Positions 4,057 to 11,349 are shown, numbered from the stretch's first letter. The stretch: 24,000 nt of DNA from Candidatus Cryptobacteroides onthequi (GCA_018066125.1 JAGHSA010000007.1:3308-27307), one strand, 5' to 3'. Program-made: numbers and translations. Notes: generated by a model from the sequence alone, not told the origin.

Positions 4057-5088
4057 CTAAATCACCACCCTGCGGCCCTCTTCTGAAGACTTGATGGCGG
4101 CAAATACGGCGCGCATTGCAGCCAGGACACCCCTGGCATCGATCAGCGGCTCCTTGTCATTCTCGATGCAGTCGATGAAGGCATCGATGACGCCTGACTT
4201 GGTCTGGTCGTCGTTGGTCTGTATCCTGCCGAGATCGAATGTCTCCTTGGCACCGTTCTTCTTCCAGATGACGATCTGCGGAAGATCCACGCCGTAGATG
4301 GCCATGTCACCTTCGGTTCCGAATATGGTGGTGGAATTGTCCTCGACGCCGTAATAGGTCCAGCTGGCCACCATGGTACCCATCGCTCCCCCGCTCATCT
4401 CATAGATGCAGATGGCGTTGTCATCGACACTGATCGGATTGCCTTCGGCATCGACCTTGTCGATCGTGGCGAGCCTCGCGGTCACTGCCGTGACTTCCTG
4501 GCCTATGAGGTACTGGATGAGATCCGTCTTGTGGATACCGAGATCTGCCATCACACCCATGGCTGCCTGCTTCTTGTCGAAGAACCATGTATTCCTGCCG
4601 GGATCGACGCTCCATGTCTCAGGGCCAGAATGGCCGAAATAGGTGCGGAAAGTGAGCACCTTGCCTATGGCGCCGGCCCCGATGAGCATCTTCGCCATGG
4701 CATGGGCCTGCGCGAGTCTCTGGTTCTGTCCTATCATGAGCTTGCGGCCGCATTCTTCCGCTGTCTTCACCATGAGCTCACACTCTTCGATGGTGATGGC
4801 CATAGGCTTCTCGCAAAGCACATGCTTGCCTGCGCGGAGGGCCTTCACTGTCACCTCGCAATGCGCCACATTGGCCACACACACACTGACAGCATCGATT
4901 TCCGGGTCTGCGAGCAGAGCGTCAAGAGTATCATAAGCCTTGGCGCCGATCTTCTGTGCGAGCTCGGCAGCGCGCTCCATGTTGTTGTCGAACAATCCGA
5001 CGATGCGCGCGTCTGGGTTTGCAAGATATTCAGGGATGTGCCTTACCTGCGAGATCTTCCCGCAGCCGATGATTCCGATTCCAGTCAT
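4057..5088 (-). CDS. Gfo/Idh/MocA-family NAD(P)-dependent oxidoreductase (cytoplasmic)
   Basis: The N-terminal Rossmann motif GIGIIGCGKIS, the EKP motif (VLCEKPMA) and the length (343 aa) fit the family. No signal peptide. Confidence 0.85.
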   Translation of the reverse strand: MTGIGIIGCGKISQVRHIPEYLANPDARIVGLFDNNMERAAELAQKIGAKAYDTLDALLADPEIDAVSVCVANVAHCEVTVKALRAGKHVLCEKPMAITIEECELMVKTAEECGRKLMIGQNQRLAQAHAMAKMLIGAGAIGKVLTFRTYFGHSGPETWSVDPGRNTWFFDKKQAAMGVMADLGIHKTDLIQYLIGQEVTAVTARLATIDKVDAEGNPISVDDNAICIYEMSGGAMGTMVASWTYYGVEDNSTTIFGTEGDMAIYGVDLPQIVIWKKNGAKETFDLGRIQTNDDQTKSGVIDAFIDCIENDKEPLIDARGVLAAMRAVFAAIKSSEEGRRVVI

Positions 5089-5215
5089 AGTGATAGTGTG
5101 TTAGCGGATACAATATAGGCAATAATTCCCGCACAACAATGACCCCCAACGCATTTTCTTCACACAGGAGCATGTCATGACGGCATGGCACGCGTCGGGA
5201 TGCCGACGCCAACGA

Positions 5216-5833
5216 TCAGAATCTGAGCGCGAATGCGGGACCGGCGGCTCCTGAGAGCGGGTCATACATGGGAGCCAGGGAGAGCTCCGCACGGGCATTG
5301 CGGCGCTGACCGGATATGCGCCCGAGAACATTGTGCGCCGGCTCGAGAAGCCAGTACCCCACACTGGCGCTGAGGATGCCGCAGCCCGCTCCGGCCACCG
5401 TATCCCACCAGTAGTGGCGGTGATGGTACACGCGCAGCGCGGCCACACTCCCGGCCACGGCATAGGCTCCTGCACCCCATCCCCATCCATATTCGCGGCG
5501 CACTATCTCTGCGCCGAGAAATGCGGTCGCGCTGTGCCCGCTCGGGAATGAATTGCGCGCCGAGCCGTCGGGGCGCTCTTCACGCACTGTGTACTTGATG
5601 GCATTGACGAGCGCAGCTTCCGTCACGAATCCCATACCCGCCACCATCATGCGGTCCCATCCGGGATCCTGAGCCTTCACTCCGGTCCACCCGAGACCTA
5701 TGCCGGCCGCCAGGGGGACATACTGGAGGTAATAGTCGGCGACCGCATGCTCGTTGTACTGTGCATGCAGGGGATATCCGGCGAGAAGGGCCACCAGAGA
5801 AAGGAAACAGATGTACAGTCTTTTTGCGGGCAT
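5216..5833 (-). CDS. PAP2-family (type 2 phosphatidic-acid-phosphatase-like) membrane phosphatase
   Basis: All three PAP2 motifs are present: KYTVREERPDG (KxxxxxxRP), FPSGHS (PSGH) and LRVYHHRHYWWD (SRxxxxxHxxxD-like). An N-terminal signal/TM segment is present. Confidence 0.8.
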   Translation of the reverse strand: MPAKRLYICFLSLVALLAGYPLHAQYNEHAVADYYLQYVPLAAGIGLGWTGVKAQDPGWDRMMVAGMGFVTEAALVNAIKYTVREERPDGSARNSFPSGHSATAFLGAEIVRREYGWGWGAGAYAVAGSVAALRVYHHRHYWWDTVAGAGCGILSASVGYWLLEPAHNVLGRISGQRRNARAELSLAPMYDPLSGAAGPAFALRF

Positions 5834-5837
5834 GGGG

Positions 5838-5845
5838 CAAAGTTA
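5838..5845 (-). promoter_or_regulatory. Bacteroidetes -7 promoter box (TAACTTTG on the minus strand) for the PAP2 gene
   Basis: Exact TAnnTTTG match, 4 nt upstream of the ATG at 5833. Confidence 0.35.
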
Positions 5846-5916
5846 GCATTCTTTCACTTGTCTTAATCAAAGATTGTGGCTAAATTGCATGGATAAATCA
5901 TTAAAATCGGACTATC

Positions 5917-6192
5917 ATGATCAGAATCAACTGTTTCTTCAAGGCAAAAGAGGACAAGTATGCAGAGGCCCTCGAATACGCAATCGCACTCGTAGCTGAA
6001 AGCCAGCGTCAGGAAGGATGCATCGCATATGATGTATTCGAGTCAGGCACACGCGGAGACGTGTTCATGATCTGCGAGACCTGGGCAAGCCAGGAGCTCC
6101 TCGATGCACATTCAGCATCAGAGCCTTTCACACGCCTCGTCCCTCAGATCCAGGAGTGCGGAGAGCTCAAGATCGAGGTATTCAACTTCTAG
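5917..6192 (+). CDS. ABM-domain protein (antibiotic-biosynthesis-monooxygenase / quinol-monooxygenase-like ferredoxin fold)
   Basis: The 91-aa product shows the ABM pattern: QEGCIAYDVF...ICETWASQELLDAHSASEPF (EpGC-x-Y...E-x-W...aH..s.hf). Confidence 0.7.
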   Translation: MIRINCFFKAKEDKYAEALEYAIALVAESQRQEGCIAYDVFESGTRGDVFMICETWASQELLDAHSASEPFTRLVPQIQECGELKIEVFNF

Positions 6193-6205
6193 AAACAATA
6201 CCGGA

Positions 6206-7702
6206 ATGGCTGACACCATCTACGATATCGTCACCTCCGGATGCCTGACATACGAGCAGAAACTCACCTCCCTGGCACGCGCCGCGGAGAATACTCTTGA
6301 TGTCCTGGACATGCCGGAAAAGACAAGGCAGTACTTTGCCGAAGGCGTCATCTGCAACCTCAATGAGGGTGCGGCGCCGTACCGTCCGCGCTACATCATG
6401 CCGGACTACGCCAAGACGGTGAAAAACGGTGTGAAGTTCCTCGAGCTCGACCCTCCTAAGGATCTTGACGAGCTGCTGAACTTCCTCCAGATACTCTACA
6501 GGCATGTGCCGTCGATTACCACTTTCCCGGTGTATCTCGGCGCCCTTGACACCCTGATCGAGCCTTTCCTGGACGGCGTATCCGATGAAGAGGCGGAGAA
6601 GAAGATAAGGCTTTTCTTCCGCTTCCTGGACCGTACCATCACGGACAGTTTCTGCCACGCCAACCTCGGCCCGGCCGAGACCCGCGCTGGACGCATCATA
6701 CTCAAGGTGGAGCAGAGCATCGCCCAGGCAGTGCCCAACCTCACCCTCAAGTACGACCCCGAGATCACCAGCGACTCCTTTGCGGAGCTGGCACTCCAGA
6801 CCAGCCTGTACTGCGCCAACCCTGCCATCTGCAACGACCCGGGCAACAGGGATACCTATGACCATTACGGCATAAGCAGCTGCTACAACATCCTCCCGGT
6901 CGGAGGCGGTTCGTACACGCTCACGCGCATAGTGCTCCCGCGCCTCGCGCAGAAGACGGACTCGCTTGACGAGTTCCTGGAGGTCATGCTCCCCGATGCA
7001 CTCAGATGCATGGCGGACTACATGAGCGAGCGCATCAGGTTCATCGTGGAGAAGAGCAGATTCTTCGAGTCCCACTTTCTTGCGAAGGAGGGTCTCGTGG
7101 AGCGCGACCGCTTCACCGCGATGTTCGGCATGGTGGGACTCGCTGAAGCAGCGAACCATTTCGCCGAAGGCGCAAGATACGGCCACGACGCGGAGGCCGA
7201 CGACATCGCAGACAGAATCATGACGGTGATCAGCGACTTCGCGGCGGCATACGAAGCACCGTACTGCGAGATCAGCGGCCACAGGCTGCTGCTCCACGCA
7301 CAGGTGGGCATCGACACCGACCACGGCATCACCTCAGGCGTACGCATCCCTGTAGGAGAGGAGCCTGAGCGCATGTACGACCACCTCAGGCACAGTGCAA
7401 GGTTCCACCGCTTCTTCCCTACCGGCTGCAGCGACATATTCGCATTCGACATCACCGGCAGGGACAACCCTGCCGCAATGCTCGATATCGTCAAGGGCGC
7501 ATTCAGCCTAGGGCACAAGTACATGGCGTTCTACGCTGCCGACAGCGACCTCGTCCGCATCACCGGATATCTGGTGAAGCGCAGCGAGATCGAGAAGTGG
7601 GACAGCGGAGAGGCCGTGCTTCAGAACACCACACAGCTCGGAGCGCCTACCTACAAGTCAGCGCACCTTGCCGACAGGAAAGTGCGGAGCACCGAAGGAT
7701 GA
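6206..7702 (+). CDS. yjjI: YjjI-family glycine (glycyl) radical enzyme homolog (DUF3029)
   Basis: The product is about 498 aa. A C-terminal glycyl-radical-type motif DLVRITGYLV is present, with the Gly codon at 7565..7567. The stop overlaps the start of a YjjW-type activase in an ATGA, as in the E. coli yjjI-yjjW pair. I moved the start from 6104 to the ATG at 6206 (MADTIYDIV...) because the upstream extension overlaps the ABM gene. Confidence 0.7.
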   Translation: MADTIYDIVTSGCLTYEQKLTSLARAAENTLDVLDMPEKTRQYFAEGVICNLNEGAAPYRPRYIMPDYAKTVKNGVKFLELDPPKDLDELLNFLQILYRHVPSITTFPVYLGALDTLIEPFLDGVSDEEAEKKIRLFFRFLDRTITDSFCHANLGPAETRAGRIILKVEQSIAQAVPNLTLKYDPEITSDSFAELALQTSLYCANPAICNDPGNRDTYDHYGISSCYNILPVGGGSYTLTRIVLPRLAQKTDSLDEFLEVMLPDALRCMADYMSERIRFIVEKSRFFESHFLAKEGLVERDRFTAMFGMVGLAEAANHFAEGARYGHDAEADDIADRIMTVISDFAAAYEAPYCEISGHRLLLHAQVGIDTDHGITSGVRIPVGEEPERMYDHLRHSARFHRFFPTGCSDIFAFDITGRDNPAAMLDIVKGAFSLGHKYMAFYAADSDLVRITGYLVKRSEIEKWDSGEAVLQNTTQLGAPTYKSAHLADRKVRSTEG

Positions 7703-8535
7703 CGTGCGCACCGGTCAACAGGATCATACCGCTGAGCGTGGTGGACGGACCCGGGAACCGCACTGCAGTGTTCCTCCAGGGCTGCAACATCGCCTGCGCC
7801 TACTGCCACAATCCGGAGACACAGCACAGCTGCATCAGCTGCGGTGAATGTGTCGGCGGGTGCCCTTCGGGGGCCCTGGGCATTGTGGACGGTAAAGTGA
7901 GCTGGGACAGCGCCAGATGCATCATGTGCGACCGCTGCATAAAGACCTGCCCCCGCAATGCATCACCGAAGGTGAAGCAGATGAGCGTGGAAGAGGTGAT
8001 GGATGAGATCCGGCGCAATGTCCCGTTCATCCGCGGCATCACGGTCTCCGGCGGAGAGTGCATGCTCCACGCCGGCTTTGTCGAGGAGCTGTTCCGCGCC
8101 GCCAGGGCAGAGGGACTCGGCACCCTGATCGACTCCAACGGCACAGTGGACTTCTCGCGCCATCCGGGGCTCATGTCCGTCACCGACGGAGTGATGCTGG
8201 ATGTGAAGAGCTGGGATGAAGACGCATTCCGCAGGCTGACCGGAGCATCAGGAGCCATGGTGAAAAGAAACCTGCGCTACCTGGCGGAGACCGGCAGGAT
8301 AGAGGAGCTGCGCATAGTGTGCCTGGATGGCGAGGTCGATGCAGAAGCAGTCATCCGCGGCATTGCGGAGACGATACCCGGTCATTTCAGGGATATTCCC
8401 CTGAAGCTCATACGCTTCCGCCCGCACGGGGTGAGAGGCAGGCTTGAGGGGCACGCGGGACCTGATGACGGGACAATGGAAAGATACAGGGAAACTGCCA
8501 TACAAAACGGATTCAACAAAGTTATCATAAGATGA
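7699..8535 (+). CDS. yjjW: YjjW-family glycyl-radical-enzyme activating enzyme (radical SAM)
   Basis: The N-terminus SVVDGPGNRTAVFLQGCNIACAYCHNPET carries the CX3CX2C cluster (7783..7806). Two extra ferredoxin-like Cys motifs follow (CISCGECVGGCP and CIMCDRCIKTCP), then GGE (VSGGEC). I set the start at the ATG at 7699, which overlaps the yjjI stop (ATGA). Confidence 0.8.
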   Translation: MTCAPVNRIIPLSVVDGPGNRTAVFLQGCNIACAYCHNPETQHSCISCGECVGGCPSGALGIVDGKVSWDSARCIMCDRCIKTCPRNASPKVKQMSVEEVMDEIRRNVPFIRGITVSGGECMLHAGFVEELFRAARAEGLGTLIDSNGTVDFSRHPGLMSVTDGVMLDVKSWDEDAFRRLTGASGAMVKRNLRYLAETGRIEELRIVCLDGEVDAEAVIRGIAETIPGHFRDIPLKLIRFRPHGVRGRLEGHAGPDDGTMERYRETAIQNGFNKVIIR

Positions 8536-10106
8536 AAAAGACAGTACTCATCGCAATGGCCCTGCTCTCGGGAGTTGTCCTGAAGGCGCAGGACGAAGAG
8601 CATTCAGGACTGGAGTGCACAAGTATCATGGTGGGCCGCAAGGCCAGCACCGACGGATCGGTCATCACCTCACACACCTGTGACGGCACCTCCCACACAT
8701 GGGTGGAGATCGTCCCTGCAGCCGATCACCGCAAGGGTGAGATGACTCCCCTGCGCAAGGACTGGCGCAAGACAAGATACATCACCGACACCGTCGGGAT
8801 CAAGATCGTGGGCGAGATTCCTCAGGTTAAGCACACATATTCATATGTGAACACCGGATACCCTTCCCTCAACGAGAAGCAGCTCGGCATCGGTGAGACC
8901 ACATGGTCTGGACCTGACACCCTGATCAACCGCAAGTCTCCCCTCCTGATCGAGGAACTCTGCCGCCTCGCTCTCGAGCGCTGTGACAACGCCCGCGACG
9001 CCGTCCGCCTGATGGGTGAGATTTCCGAGAAATACGGCTACGGCGACGGAGGAGAGTGCCTCACCGTCGGCGACCCGAATGAAGTATGGCAGTTCGAAAT
9101 CACCGGCAACGGCAAGCATGCCACCGGTGCCATCTGGGTGGCACAGCGCATACCTGATGACCACATCGGAGTCTCAGCCAACATCCCGCGCATCGGAAAG
9201 TTCGACCGCAGCGACAAGGAGAACTTCATGGCTTCCGACAATGTGGAGCAGGTCTGCAGGGAGCACGGCCTCTGGGACGGCGAAGGTGATTTCGTATTCT
9301 GGAAAGCGATGAACTGCGACTACGCAAAGGGCAAGAACTTCCGCGAGAGGGACTTCCACGTGTTCAACATGCTCGCGCCGTCACTCGGCCTGACCTACGA
9401 CATGGATGAGATCCCATTCTCCGTGAAGCCTGACGCACAGGTGGATGTAAGGGACGTCATGAGACTCTTCAGAGACACCTACGAGGGCACAGATTTCGAC
9501 ATGTGCAAGAACTGGAACATGGAGGTACCTGCCAAGGACACCATCCCTGCACACATCGAGGTGAGTCCTCTTGCGAACCCATGGCTCACCACCAACATGC
9601 GCAATACCCTCAACACCATCGCTCCTGGCACTATCGAGTTCACCCGCACCCTTGCGGTGGCATGGTGTTCATACTCTACCGTCATCCAGCTCCGCAGCTG
9701 GCTTCCTGACGGCATCGGCGGAGTGTGCTGGTATTCAGTGGACAACCCGGCCCAGAGCCCGCGCATCCCTATCTATTGCGGAGGATCCAAGCTTCCTTCA
9801 GCATTTGAGAAGTGCGGCCAGAAGGTGTATGACCGCGACTGTGTACTCTGGCAGTTCAGACGTGCCAACAAGCTCGCGACCCTCTCATGGCAGACCACCA
9901 AGAAGGAGTTCAACGAGAACGTGATGGAGATGGAGAACCTTCTCCTCGACGGCCAGGCAGAGCTCGAGAAGAAGTATCAGAGCGCCAAGAAGGCAGACAA
10001 GGCCGGAGTGCTCGACGCCTACACCGCAGACTTCTACAAGCAGTGCGCAGAGCGCTGGGACGGCCTCGAAGTCAAGTACTGGATGATGTTCGGCCGCGGC
10101 TTCTAG
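8532..10106 (+). CDS. Peptidase family C69 dipeptidase, exported
   Basis: A signal peptide (MKKTVLIAMALLSGVVLKAQ) is followed by the C69 nucleophile region ECTSIMVGRKASTDGSVITSHTCDG. The start overlaps the yjjW stop (ATGA at 8532..8535). Confidence 0.85.
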   Translation: MKKTVLIAMALLSGVVLKAQDEEHSGLECTSIMVGRKASTDGSVITSHTCDGTSHTWVEIVPAADHRKGEMTPLRKDWRKTRYITDTVGIKIVGEIPQVKHTYSYVNTGYPSLNEKQLGIGETTWSGPDTLINRKSPLLIEELCRLALERCDNARDAVRLMGEISEKYGYGDGGECLTVGDPNEVWQFEITGNGKHATGAIWVAQRIPDDHIGVSANIPRIGKFDRSDKENFMASDNVEQVCREHGLWDGEGDFVFWKAMNCDYAKGKNFRERDFHVFNMLAPSLGLTYDMDEIPFSVKPDAQVDVRDVMRLFRDTYEGTDFDMCKNWNMEVPAKDTIPAHIEVSPLANPWLTTNMRNTLNTIAPGTIEFTRTLAVAWCSYSTVIQLRSWLPDGIGGVCWYSVDNPAQSPRIPIYCGGSKLPSAFEKCGQKVYDRDCVLWQFRRANKLATLSWQTTKKEFNENVMEMENLLLDGQAELEKKYQSAKKADKAGVLDAYTADFYKQCAERWDGLEVKYWMMFGRGF

Positions 10107-10117
10107 CACATAATTGA

Positions 10118-10190
10118 CACAAAAAAGCCTCCCTGCATGGCAAAACAGACTGACAGTCTGGGAATTGACATGCAGGGAGTGCTTTTTGTG
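10118..10190. terminator. Bidirectional intrinsic terminator: a long imperfect hairpin with a nested inner hairpin
   Basis: The left arm is CACAAAAAAGCCTCCCTGCATG (10118..10139) and the right arm is CATGCAGGGAGTGCTTTTTGTG (10169..10190). The core CTCCCTGCATG/CATGCAGGGAG pairs perfectly over 11 bp. An A-tract on the left and a T-tract on the right give a U-run in both directions. The loop contains a second palindrome, CAGACTG-A-CAGTCTG (10146..10160). The element lies between convergent genes. Confidence 0.6.
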
Positions 10191-10203
10191 TCAGATGACA
10201 GGA

Positions 10204-11349
10204 TTACTGGATATTGTCAATCTTGATGACAGGGTGCTTGTCGAGACCGTACCACATGTTCTGGACGGTGAAGCTTAGATCCTTTCCTGCAGGGAGGCTG
10301 ACCAGCACAGAGCACATGCCGTCGACCTTGATGCCGGTGACCATATCCTCAGTGATGAGATAGTATGGGAGGGATGACTTGTTGGTGACAAGGATGCTCC
10401 TCTTGCCGTTCTTCTCGGTAGAGACTGTCTTGAACTCCATGGATGCCAGGAAGAACTTCTCGAGCAGTTCCTGTCTGCCGCAGATGTCTCCGAAACCGTA
10501 CGCAAGTGTCCTCTTGGCCAGAAGGGCCTCCTTGATGGACTCTGCAGAGCTGTCCTTGGCGAGGACGAATGTCATGTTGCGGAGCTGTCCGTAGTCACCG
10601 AACTTGTGGGCTATGGTGCTGTGGATGTCGGTACCTGAGCAGACGTAGAGGTTGTTGTTGATGGCATCCTCGATGTTTATCGGGTAGAACTCGGCGTCAT
10701 TGTAGCACTCCATACCGTCAAGAAGACCTTCGCTGATGGCACTCAGAGTGGTCGAAGTGAGCTTGGCATCATGACGTGCCCACCCCGGATGGTTGTTCTG
10801 CACGATGGCACCCTGCTTCTTGGCATTGCGGATGGCCTGGAGCGGGTCTGGGTCAGGGATGAGGTTGTTGTCTGTGGTGAAGAGGGCGTTGAAGTGGCCG
10901 ACTTCCTGTGCCGAGCGGGTGATCTCGGTCGCAGGGATGAGCGTGATACCGAGCGCCTCGGCTCTCGGGCGAGCAAGGTTTACGGATTTGTTGAGATCCA
11001 CAGACTCAGGCTTGTCAGCCTTTAGGTACGCCGCAAACTTCGCATCGCTCGGACGATATTCGATGTGGTCCGAGATGACAAGCGCGTCGAGTCCGTCTCT
11101 CCAGGCTTCCTTCACACGGAACTCCGGAGATGTGTCACCGTCGGAGTAGACAGTGTGTACATGGAGGTCGGTCTTCACCACCTTGAAGCCTTCGACATCA
11201 GGGATAACGATCTCATGCCTGGTCTCTGTGCGGAGGTTTCTGAAAAGGTCTGGGTTGGATCTGTCCTGCTGCTGGCTCATCTGCTGTGCGGATGCAATGA
11301 GGCAGGAAGAAACGGCTGCGATGCAGCTGATAAGTCTTCTAGTGTTCAT
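10204..11349 (-). CDS. PHP-domain metallo-phosphoesterase (Sb-PDE-like phosphodiesterase), probable lipoprotein
   Basis: The signal peptide has a possible lipobox (AAVSSC). The PHP signature TDLHVHTVYSDGD is present, followed by ISDHIEY, NHPGW and GTDIH metal-ligand-like motifs. Confidence 0.65.
   Translation of the reverse strand: MNTRRLISCIAAVSSCLIASAQQMSQQQDRSNPDLFRNLRTETRHEIVIPDVEGFKVVKTDLHVHTVYSDGDTSPEFRVKEAWRDGLDALVISDHIEYRPSDAKFAAYLKADKPESVDLNKSVNLARPRAEALGITLIPATEITRSAQEVGHFNALFTTDNNLIPDPDPLQAIRNAKKQGAIVQNNHPGWARHDAKLTSTTLSAISEGLLDGMECYNDAEFYPINIEDAINNNLYVCSGTDIHSTIAHKFGDYGQLRNMTFVLAKDSSAESIKEALLAKRTLAYGFGDICGRQELLEKFFLASMEFKTVSTEKNGKRSILVTNKSSLPYYLITEDMVTGIKVDGMCSVLVSLPAGKDLSFTVQNMWYGLDKHPVIKIDNIQ

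What the first reader, a model, noticed from the sequence alone, without database searches (positions are those of the whole stretch)
5917..10106. Four-gene operon ABM - YjjI glycyl-radical enzyme - YjjW activase - C69 dipeptidase: genomic context for an enzyme family of unknown substrate
Seen in the sequence: four + strand genes with a 13-nt gap and two ATGA stop/start overlaps (7699..7702 and 8532..8535), ending in a strong bidirectional terminator. The YjjI homolog keeps a C-terminal glycyl-radical-like motif, VRITGY (Gly codon 7565..7567). The activase has the CX3CX2C radical-SAM cluster plus two ferredoxin-type Cys clusters. Established knowledge: YjjI/YjjW is a recognised GRE/activase pair. 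YjjI is much shorter than canonical GREs, and to my knowledge its reaction has not been established. Inference: tight coupling to a dipeptidase and an ABM-fold protein is a usable guilt-by-association clue. It points to a peptide- or amino-acid-derived substrate, by analogy with hydroxyproline dehydratase acting downstream of prolyl peptidases, or to an ABM-fold accessory subunit.
Basis: partly seen in the sequence, partly recalled or inferred. Interest (0 to 1): 0.6.

Follow-up and report, generated by a model that had tools for sequence, protein, structure and literature searches.

The report
YjjI radical enzyme pair, chance neighbours
The four genes are real and tightly packed, but the small ABM protein and the peptidase beside the orphan radical enzyme YjjI and its activator occur there only in this one species, so they say little about the enzyme's substrate; in other bacteria YjjI sits with nucleoside uptake and breakdown genes.

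Summary
ABM (5917-6192), YjjI (6206-7702), YjjW (7699-8535) and a C69 peptidase (8532-10106) lie on the + strand with a 13-nt gap and two ATGA overlaps, followed by a strong hairpin. YjjI and YjjW score above the curated NCBIfam cut-offs. Gly454 and Cys226 are invariant in 82 YjjI proteins, including E. coli YjjI.

No ABM or C69 gene lies within 6 kb of YjjI in 80 other genomes. None appears in five metagenomic contexts of the closest relatives (78-85% identity). Only same-species contigs (99% identity) repeat the arrangement. C69 and ABM have orthologues at separate loci in congeners that lack YjjI, and the C69 protein carries a signal peptide.

YjjI was found in none of about 300 other genomes sampled from the same family. 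The Bacteroidales YjjI clade nests inside Lachnospiraceae sequences, which points to horizontal acquisition.

Across Bacillota, 50 of 60 loci place yjjI-yjjW beside nucleoside importers and catabolic enzymes, and in E. coli the pair faces deoCABD. The fold is closest to the class III ribonucleotide reductase NrdD. This scan has already noted the nucleoside link many times on other genomes. Verdict: an ordinary new member of an orphan family in an uninformative context.

The parts
5834..5916 (.). 83-nt divergent intergenic region between PAP2 (minus strand) and ABM. It is the only promoter-sized gap before the string.
   Evidence: No exact TAnnTTTG box on the + strand here; the only one, at 5838-5845, is on the minus strand. 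The sigma-70-like match at 5890-5918 is no better than in shuffles.
5917..6192 (+). ABM-fold protein of 91 aa. It is a bystander, not a conserved YjjI partner.
   Evidence: PF03992 E 4.4e-14. It is the only ABM among 60 small ORFs flanking YjjI. Orthologues of 47-64% identity occur in 4 congeners without YjjI.
6206..7702 (+). YjjI-family glycyl radical enzyme, 498 aa.
   Evidence: TIGR04040 675.9 bits (cut-off 498.3) and PF11230. In the AF2 model the best PDB fold matches are NrdD. hhalign to NrdD gives probability 95%.
6881..6883 (+). Codon of Cys226 (GISSCYN), the candidate thiyl-radical cysteine.
   Evidence: It is the only Cys invariant in 82 YjjI sequences. It sits at the tip of a beta-hairpin in the model, which has low pLDDT there. 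It lies 5 residues before the block that aligns with the part of NrdD following its MGC-R Cys loop.
7565..7567 (+). Codon of Gly454 (VRITGYLVK), the glycyl-radical site.
   Evidence: Invariant in 82 of 82 sequences and aligned with E. coli Gly465. E. coli Gly465 was labelled by a radical probe in live cells. It aligns with the RITGYLV motif of NrdD.
7699..8535 (+). YjjW-family radical-SAM activase, 278 aa. Cx3Cx2C is at 7783-7806 and the ferredoxin-type clusters are at 7831-7863 and 7918-7950.
   Evidence: TIGR04041 372.6 bits (cut-off 250.2). Motifs were read from the translation. A YjjW gene lies directly downstream of YjjI in 79 of 79 loci where the contig continues.
8532..10106 (+). Exported C69-family (Ntn-hydrolase) peptidase, 524 aa. 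The signal peptide is residues 1-19 (8532-8588) and the nucleophile Cys29 codon is 8616-8618. It is a resident gene of the genus, not a YjjI partner.
   Evidence: PF03577 E 1e-55 starting at residue 29; NF033678 185.9 bits, below its cut-off of 250. Orthologues of 53-73% identity occur in 27 sampled congeners that lack YjjI.
10124..10185 (.). Long hairpin between the convergent C69 and PHP genes; a likely bidirectional terminator.
   Evidence: dG -35.2 kcal/mol, z -5.38, and 0 of 200 shuffles fold as well. An A-run precedes it and a T-run follows it.

Best explanation
The core of the stretch is a two-gene module, yjjI-yjjW, which is a self-contained and horizontally mobile unit. In this horse-gut Bacteroidales (Muribaculaceae-like) species it lies between an ABM-fold gene and an exported C69 peptidase gene. 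The four genes form a compact co-directional string that is probably one transcript, but the outer two genes are bystanders and carry no information about the substrate. Inferred mechanism, from family knowledge: YjjW, a radical-SAM enzyme with one SAM cluster and two auxiliary [4Fe-4S] clusters, cleaves S-adenosylmethionine. The 5'-deoxyadenosyl radical abstracts the hydrogen of Gly454 in YjjI. The stored glycyl radical is passed to Cys226, and the thiyl radical abstracts a hydrogen from the substrate inside an NrdD-like barrel. The substrate is most likely a nucleoside or a ribosyl or pentose-phosphate compound derived from nucleosides. It is not a peptide product and not a nucleotide destined for DNA synthesis. 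The reaction itself is unknown. A 2'-dehydration or reduction of the ribosyl moiety, in the manner of the first half-reaction of ribonucleotide reductase, is the most economical guess. Shown here: family membership, conserved radical residues, fold, species-specific neighbours, and the recurrent nucleoside context elsewhere. Inferred: co-transcription, radical relay, and substrate class.
For: Both family models score above their curated cut-offs. Gly454 and Cys226 are invariant in 82 sequences, including E. coli. yjjW follows yjjI in 79 of 79 loci. ABM or C69 appears beside YjjI in 0 of 80 genome loci (phmmer; Pfam scan of 59 flanking small ORFs) and in 0 of 5 contexts of 78-85% relatives; it appears only in 99%-identical contigs. 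YjjI was found in 0 of 60 relatives and 0 of 250 other genomes of the family, of which 146 are of high quality. The Bacteroidales YjjI clade (support 100) is nested within Lachnospiraceae rows in the tree. C69 orthologues occur in 27 sampled congeners and ABM orthologues in 4, all lacking YjjI and lying on separate contigs. For the nucleoside context, 50 of 60 Bacillota loci have a Bmp/PnrA ABC importer, NupG, cytidine deaminase, PNP, PyNP, phosphopentomutase, IU-nucleoside hydrolase or PsuG/PsuK-like genes within 6 kb. One further locus has a DeoC-family aldolase. E. coli yjjI-yjjW is divergent from deoCABD. The 35 best PDB fold matches are all NrdD (E 1e-13 to 5e-10, TM about 0.6), and the profile-profile match to NrdD has probability 95%.
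Against: The ATGA overlaps with yjjW, and the 13-nt gap after ABM, are what one expects of a functional operon, and selection may have shaped them. The sister sequence P0002 (85% identity) also sits in a tight string with peptide and amino-acid genes (M1 aminopeptidase, an S9/S15-like hydrolase, a beta-eliminating lyase-family protein). One Paludibacteraceae subclade has an OPT oligopeptide transporter right after yjjW. So peptide-related neighbours appear three times among roughly ten Bacteroidales contexts, although each time they are different genes. Only 1 of 20 loci labelled Bacteroidota has a nucleoside gene nearby, and that one (L067) groups with Hungatella. The nucleoside inference is therefore imported from other phyla. 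The model has moderate confidence (pLDDT 68) and is poor at both radical loops. There are no transcript or biochemical data.
Confidence: 0.72

Rival explanations
1. One reading: the four genes are a functional pathway. The C69 dipeptidase releases an amino acid or peptide fragment that YjjI then transforms, by analogy with hydroxyproline dehydratase acting downstream of prolyl peptidases.
For: Stop/start overlaps and a single upstream gap. The sister relative P0002 lies in a tight string with M1 and S9-like peptidases and a beta-eliminating lyase-family gene. An OPT transporter follows yjjW in four related Paludibacteraceae loci. Hydroxyproline-type dehydratases do appear among the fold matches, but at ranks 37-40.
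Against: No C69 gene was found beside any other YjjI. The three peptide-related contexts share no gene family. C69 carries a signal peptide and so acts outside the cytoplasm. C69 orthologues are common in congeners without YjjI, and this genome has three C69 paralogues. YjjI is 69-85% identical to proteins that sit in nucleoside operons, with all candidate active-site residues retained, so a change of substrate is unlikely. The fold is closest to NrdD, not to the dehydratase/lyase glycyl radical enzymes.
Confidence: 0.07
2. ABM is an accessory subunit or a protective partner of YjjI, for example a small subunit like those of 4-hydroxyphenylacetate decarboxylase or benzylsuccinate synthase, or an oxygen-consuming guard.
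For: A 13-nt gap and the same strand. Some glycyl radical enzymes do have small subunits (established knowledge).
Against: No ABM was found beside YjjI in the other 80 loci, even with the Pfam model. ABM orthologues exist in four congeners that lack YjjI. E. coli has no ABM gene between yjjV and deoC.
Confidence: 0.04
3. YjjI is a second, minimal anaerobic ribonucleotide reductase that supplies dNTPs.
For: The best fold and profile matches are NrdD, and the glycyl motif RITGYLV is identical to that of this genus's NrdD.
Against: TIGR02487 (NrdD) scores 14.8 bits against a cut-off of 326. No Cys follows or precedes the Gly motif where NrdD has its Cx2C...Cx2C zinc ribbon. Only one Cys is invariant. 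The genome has a full NrdD that scores 582 bits. The neighbours elsewhere are catabolic and uptake genes.
Confidence: 0.05
4. The module is a decaying or silent remnant of a horizontal transfer with no current function in this species.
For: Patchy distribution: 0 of 250 genomes of the family. There is no nucleoside context here.
Against: Both frames are intact and full length against their family profiles. All invariant residues are kept. Same-species contigs from other samples keep the proteins at 99% identity.
Confidence: 0.05

Closest known systems
E. coli K-12 YjjI (b4380) and YjjW (b4379); NCBIfam TIGR04040/TIGR04041; Pfam PF11230 (formerly DUF3029)
   Same: Same two-gene module in the same order. 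It is 42% identical to E. coli YjjI, with the same Gly motif (Gly454 = E. coli Gly465) and the same invariant Cys. The function is unassigned in both.
   Different: The E. coli pair faces deoCABD and lies next to yjjU and yjjV. Here the pair is flanked by ABM and an exported C69 peptidase, and no nucleoside gene is nearby.
[quoted passage not shown]
   Same: Closest fold: the 35 best PDB matches are NrdD. The C-terminal half of the barrel and the glycyl loop align with probability 95%. The RITGYLV motif is identical. Both need a radical-SAM activase.
   Different: YjjI is about 200 residues shorter. It has no zinc ribbon before the Gly loop, no ATP cone and only one invariant Cys. It fails the NrdD model (14.8 bits against a cut-off of 326). 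The genome has a separate true NrdD. The activase is of the PFL-AE/dicluster type, not NrdG-like.
Trans-4-hydroxy-L-proline dehydratase HypD and its activase
   Same: It is a glycyl radical enzyme whose substrate comes from peptide breakdown. YjjW's second-best NCBIfam hit is the HypD activase model (154.5 bits, far below its cut-off of 425).
   Different: HypD-type structures rank only 37-40 in the fold search and are about 780-aa proteins. There is no sequence-level family match and no conserved peptidase partner for YjjI.
Bacillota yjjI-yjjW nucleoside operons (Crp-type regulator, Bmp/PnrA ABC importer, cytidine deaminase, NupG, Deo and Psu genes)
   Same: YjjI is 60-76% identical, YjjW has the same length and cluster content, and the 4-nt overlap between yjjI and yjjW is the same.
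   Different: The window lacks the Crp-type regulator (present in 43 of 80 loci) and every nucleoside gene.

Membership tests
YjjI family glycine radical enzyme (TIGR04040 / PF11230) | Full-length match above the curated score cut-off | tested here: met
   675.9 bits against a cut-off of 498.3, residues 4-494 on profile positions 2-497. PF11230 E 5.7e-209.
YjjI family glycine radical enzyme (TIGR04040 / PF11230) | C-terminal glycyl-radical motif with a conserved Gly | tested here: met
   VRITG454YLVK. The Gly is invariant in 82 of 82 sequences and aligns with E. coli Gly465.
YjjI family glycine radical enzyme (TIGR04040 / PF11230) | Conserved mid-protein Cys on a finger loop (thiyl site) | tested here: met
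   Cys226 is the only Cys invariant in 82 sequences. It sits at a beta-hairpin tip in the model, though with pLDDT below 50 there.
YjjI family glycine radical enzyme (TIGR04040 / PF11230) | Dedicated YjjW activase encoded immediately downstream | tested here: met
   4-nt overlap at 7699-7702. The same order is seen in 79 of 79 loci.
YjjI family glycine radical enzyme (TIGR04040 / PF11230) | Formation of a glycyl radical | not testable with these tools
   This needs anaerobic reconstitution and EPR. The only related data are in vivo probe labelling of E. coli Gly465 in a preprint.
YjjW family activase (TIGR04041) | Score above the cut-off, a Cx3Cx2C radical-SAM cluster, and two ferredoxin-type clusters | tested here: met
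   372.6 bits against a cut-off of 250.2. C29/C33/C36, C45/48/51/55 and C74/77/80/84 are present.
Peptidase family C69 | Family model match with the N-terminal nucleophile Cys aligned | tested here: met
   PF03577 E 1e-55, starting at residue 29 (Cys29) on profile position 2.
C69 family dipeptidase (NCBIfam NF033678 equivalog) | Score above the curated cut-off | tested here: not met
   185.9 bits against a cut-off of 250. 'Dipeptidase' is therefore a family label and not an established activity.
ABM domain (PF03992) | Family model match | tested here: met
   52.8 bits against a cut-off of 23.1. There is no NCBIfam hit.
Class III ribonucleotide reductase NrdD (TIGR02487) | Score above the cut-off | tested here: not met
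   14.8 bits against a cut-off of 326.35.
Class III ribonucleotide reductase NrdD (TIGR02487) | Four-Cys zinc ribbon next to the glycyl loop | tested here: not met
   NrdD of this genus has CxDCGY...CPHCH before RITGY. YjjI has a gap there in the profile alignment and no Cys after residue 410.
Conserved functional operon ABM-YjjI-YjjW-C69 | The partners recur beside YjjI in independent lineages | tested here: not met
   0 of 80 genome loci and 0 of 5 metagenomic contexts; only same-species contigs share the arrangement.
Conserved functional operon ABM-YjjI-YjjW-C69 | A single transcript | not testable with these tools
Only spacing and the terminal hairpin argue for one transcript.

The most novel reading that the evidence does not exclude
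YjjI is an NrdD-derived radical enzyme that carries out a so far undescribed anaerobic reaction on the ribosyl part of imported nucleosides. One possibility is 2'-dehydration or reduction of a nucleoside or ribose phosphate, feeding a DeoC-type aldolase. In Bacteroidales the module was acquired from Lachnospiraceae and works detached from its nucleoside operon. This window would then show that the two-gene module is self-sufficient. A bolder and much less likely variant (about 5%) is that this lineage has re-wired it to a peptide-derived substrate with C69 and ABM.
Probability: 0.45. Interest if true: 0.7.

Novelty: new member of a known kind. Interest (0 to 1): 0.27.

Why it matters
YjjI/YjjW is one of the last glycyl-radical systems of E. 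coli without a reaction, so any reliable context clue would be valuable. This window does not provide one, because its ABM and C69 neighbours are an idiosyncrasy of one horse-gut species. A substrate screen built on peptides would probably be misdirected. The useful results are negative and comparative. First, yjjI-yjjW moves and persists as a self-sufficient two-gene module, including across phyla. Second, the conserved company it keeps elsewhere, together with its NrdD-like fold, points to nucleosides or their ribosyl products. That gives a short candidate list for anaerobic assays. This scan has already reached the second point repeatedly on other genomes.

Tried and rejected
2. The simple terminator scan found nothing in 5000-11000, because the hairpin loop exceeds the scanner's limit. 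Folding showed the hairpin.
3. A search for a + strand Bacteroidetes -7 box (TAnnTTTG) upstream of ABM or inside the string found none, so the promoter is not located.
4. A sequence search of the PDB with the YjjI profile gave no relative with a solved structure; only the fold search worked.
5. I tried to centre a genome census on E. coli to sample Gammaproteobacteria. Records from that collection have no relatives handle, so Proteobacteria are represented by E. coli K-12 alone.
6. I tried to reconstruct an 'empty site' in congeners. C69 orthologues have none of the window's other genes within 1.5 kb. ABM orthologues likewise. PHP has only homologues of 46% identity or less. None of the window's flanking genes is syntenic with any YjjI locus. 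It therefore remains open whether yjjI-yjjW was inserted between ABM and C69 or the genes were assembled in some other way.
7. The literature holds no assigned function for YjjI or DUF3029. A 2011 co-expression paper suggested 'nitrogen metabolism' from a nar/nitrate bicluster. I treated this as reflecting anaerobic regulation rather than the substrate.
8. ABM as a subunit, YjjI as a second RNR, and a silent remnant were each considered and given low odds (see the rival explanations).

Full report
**Observation.** The gene string is exactly as described.
- ORF listing and direct reading give ABM at 5917-6192, YjjI at 6206-7702, YjjW at 7699-8535 and C69 at 8532-10106, all on the + strand. There is a 13-nt gap and two ATGA stop/start overlaps.
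- A longer YjjI frame starting at 6104 is not the gene. The TIGR04040 profile aligns from residue 4 of the 6206 start, and an independent gene call on a same-species contig gives the same 498-aa product.
- After C69 there is a 62-nt hairpin (10124-10185) between the convergent C69 and PHP genes. An A-run precedes it and a T-run follows it. Its dG is -35.2 kcal/mol and z is -5.4. The consensus scanner missed it because of its long loop.

**Identity of the four products.**
- YjjI scores 675.9 bits on TIGR04040 (cut-off 498.3).
- YjjW scores 372.6 bits on TIGR04041 (cut-off 250.2).
- Pfam adds PF11230 for YjjI, a weak NRDD match, ABM (E 4.4e-14) and Peptidase_C69 (E 1e-55).
- The C69 protein does not reach the NCBIfam dipeptidase equivalog cut-off (185.9 against 250), so 'dipeptidase' is only a family label.
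- The C69 protein begins with a classical signal peptide, and its Ntn nucleophile Cys29 is aligned to the start of the family profile. It is therefore an exported enzyme, whereas YjjI and YjjW are cytoplasmic.
- YjjW has C29x3C33x2C36 and two Cx2Cx2Cx3CP clusters.

**Radical residues.**
- In an alignment of 82 YjjI proteins (the window, 80 genomes and E. coli), Gly454 and Cys226 are invariant, and Cys226 is the only invariant cysteine.
- Gly454 corresponds to E. coli Gly465. A 2026 preprint reports that this residue is labelled by a radical-trapping probe in living cells, and it still calls YjjI uncharacterized.
- An AlphaFold model built on a shallow alignment (pLDDT 68, pTM 0.72) places both residues at the tips of beta-hairpins, but both tips have low confidence.
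- The 35 best fold matches in the PDB are all class III ribonucleotide reductases (E 1e-13 to 5e-10, TM about 0.6). Other glycyl radical enzymes, including the hydroxyproline-type dehydratases, follow.
- No relative has a solved structure by sequence.
- A profile-profile comparison with the NrdD of this genus aligns YjjI 231-470 with NrdD 402-698 at 95% probability. It shows the same RITGYLV motif and a gap where NrdD has its zinc ribbon.
- The genome has a separate genuine NrdD that scores 582 bits.

**Test of the guilt-by-association idea.** That is the result.
- I fetched 80 YjjI loci with 6-kb flanks from species-representative genomes.
- YjjW follows YjjI in all 79 loci where the contig continues. 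No ORF in any locus matches the window's ABM or C69, and no other flanking gene of the window is syntenic.
- ABM domains are short and divergent, so I also scanned 59 small ORFs flanking YjjI-YjjW with Pfam. The only ABM is the window's own.
- The closest metagenomic relatives have unrelated contexts:
  - P0002 (85% identity): M1 and S9-like peptidases, two DUFs and a beta-eliminating lyase-family gene.
  - P0003 (85%): CysS, an EEP phosphatase and a PfkB kinase.
  - P0008 (81%): a xanthine-dehydrogenase-like molybdoenzyme and a NUDIX hydrolase.
  - P0011 (78%): a patatin-like gene.
  - P0009 (79%): glycerol-3-phosphate genes.
- Only contigs carrying a 99%-identical YjjI, that is the same species, repeat PAP2-ABM-YjjI-YjjW-C69-PHP.

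**Where the outer genes come from.**
- The C69 gene has orthologues of 53-73% identity in 27 of 60 sampled congeners, none of which has YjjI. No ABM or other window gene lies within 1.5 kb of them.
- ABM has orthologues of 47-64% identity in four congeners, on different contigs from their C69 genes.
- YjjI itself was found in none of 60 relatives and in none of 250 other genomes of the family, 146 of them of high quality.
- In a maximum-likelihood tree all Bacteroidales YjjI form one clade (support 100) nested inside Lachnospiraceae sequences. The window groups with labelled Muribaculaceae MAGs and two metagenomic proteins (support 99).
- The tree was rooted at the midpoint on a very long E. 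coli branch, so the direction of transfer is an inference.
- The simplest history is a horizontally acquired two-gene module that came to lie next to unrelated genes.
- I could not reconstruct an empty site, because the region has no synteny with the sampled congeners.

**What YjjI keeps company with elsewhere.** I clustered all flank genes of the 80 loci and annotated the recurrent clusters. The counts are:
- a Crp/Fnr-type regulator in 43 loci, usually directly upstream;
- a Bmp/PnrA nucleoside ABC importer (binding protein in 36 loci, ATPase in 27, permeases in 28);
- cytidine deaminase in 11 loci, with more copies among the small ORFs;
- a PfkB-HTH kinase in 8 loci, with a PsuG-like glycosidase in 6;
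- NupG in 6, phosphopentomutase in 6 and purine nucleoside phosphorylase in 6;
- IU-nucleoside hydrolase in 4, pyrimidine nucleoside phosphorylase in 2;
- single cases of nucleoside deoxyribosyltransferase and a DeoC-family aldolase.

Fifty of 60 loci not labelled Bacteroidota have at least one such gene within 6 kb, against 1 of 20 loci labelled Bacteroidota. That one (L067) is probably a mis-binned Hungatella-like contig. In E. coli K-12, yjjW-yjjI is transcribed divergently from deoCABD. The loci are not phylogenetically independent, so these counts describe a pattern rather than test it. The pattern does span Lachnospiraceae, Oscillospiraceae, Tissierellia, Bacillaceae and Enterobacteriaceae, and it involves three unrelated kinds of nucleoside importer or catabolic route.

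**A fair hearing for the peptide idea.** Peptide-related genes appear next to YjjI three times among roughly ten distinct Bacteroidales contexts:
- C69 in this window;
- M1 and S9-like peptidases plus a beta-eliminating lyase-family gene beside the sister sequence P0002;
- an OPT oligopeptide transporter after yjjW in one Paludibacteraceae subclade.

The three cases share no gene family. Peptidases are abundant in these genomes; this one has three C69 paralogues. Co-directional strings of unrelated genes are common in Bacteroidales (my own knowledge). I therefore treat this as weak evidence and give the peptide reading about 7%.

**Mechanism.**
- Shown: the module has everything a glycyl radical system needs.
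- Inferred from family knowledge: YjjW generates the Gly454 radical from SAM, the radical passes to Cys226, and the thiyl radical starts substrate chemistry in an NrdD-like barrel.
- With only one invariant cysteine and no zinc ribbon, a thiol-pair reduction of the NrdD type is unlikely. A formate-dependent reduction or a redox-neutral elimination at a ribosyl 2',3'-diol fits better, but this is a guess.
- The literature held here assigns no function. A 2011 co-expression study linked yjjI to nitrate-respiration genes, which fits anaerobic regulation.

**Earlier notes of this scan.** After making my own census I looked up earlier findings. The scan holds 235 notes in at least 157 genomes that link YjjI/YjjW to nucleoside loci. 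None links it to a dipeptidase. Notes on this genome call it a horse-gut Bacteroidales bacterium. These notes agree with what I tested independently and are not used as evidence.

**Verdict.** This is a new member of a known orphan family in an atypical, species-specific setting. Interest is low to moderate. The value lies in steering substrate screens away from peptides and in showing that the two-gene module is mobile and self-contained.

Noticed in passing
L019-L030, L097, L141 versus the window 7699-8535: YjjW comes in two sizes. The version of about 235-240 aa in Paludibacteraceae-type loci and beside P0002 and P0011 shows only Fer4_12 and Radical_SAM hits. The 274-279-aa version here, in Muribaculaceae MAGs and in Bacillota carries the two ferredoxin-type clusters. 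The auxiliary clusters therefore seem dispensable or lost in one Bacteroidales subclade.
   Followed up: partly
L067 (labelled Bacteroides thetaiotaomicron MAG) and L076 (Hungatella hathewayi): The YjjI of L067 groups with Hungatella (support 99) and shares its neighbours (transketolase, IU-nucleoside hydrolase, ribulose-phosphate epimerase). This is either a mis-binned contig or a very recent transfer.
   Followed up: no
L040 and L073 (Hungatella hathewayi DSM 13479); L046 and L074 (H. effluvii): Each of these genomes has two YjjI-YjjW copies, about 62% and 70% identical to the window. Each copy has its own Bmp-type nucleoside ABC importer, and the two copies fall in different clades of the tree.
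   Followed up: no
L141/L142 4141-5004 and E. coli L096 8412-9485: A patatin-like gene overlaps the start of yjjI in a Bacteroidales metagenomic contig. E. coli also has a patatin-like gene (yjjU) two genes from yjjW. This is a second, weak, recurrent neighbour.
   Followed up: no
L139/L140: The 81%-identical relative P0008 sits directly after a three-subunit xanthine-dehydrogenase-like molybdoenzyme and before a NUDIX hydrolase. This is a purine and nucleotide-flavoured context inside the Bacteroidales clade.
   Followed up: no
L002 and other NrdD loci (L004-L014): The glycyl-radical heptad RITGYLV of this genus's NrdD is identical to that of YjjI, although the proteins are otherwise only about 13% identical in fold alignments.
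   Followed up: partly
window 5838-5845 (minus strand), 2914-2921, 1203-1210, 1158-1165: Exact TAnnTTTG boxes lie 4-8 nt from start codons of neighbouring genes (8 in the window against 3.5 expected). None lies on the + strand before ABM or inside the four-gene string.
   Followed up: partly
window 6001-9000: G+C is slightly higher (0.58-0.61) over yjjI-yjjW than in most of the window (0.50-0.57). This is compatible with foreign origin but too small to argue from.
   Followed up: no
window 10124-10185: The terminator-like hairpin contains a second, inner hairpin in its loop (6-bp stem).
   Followed up: no
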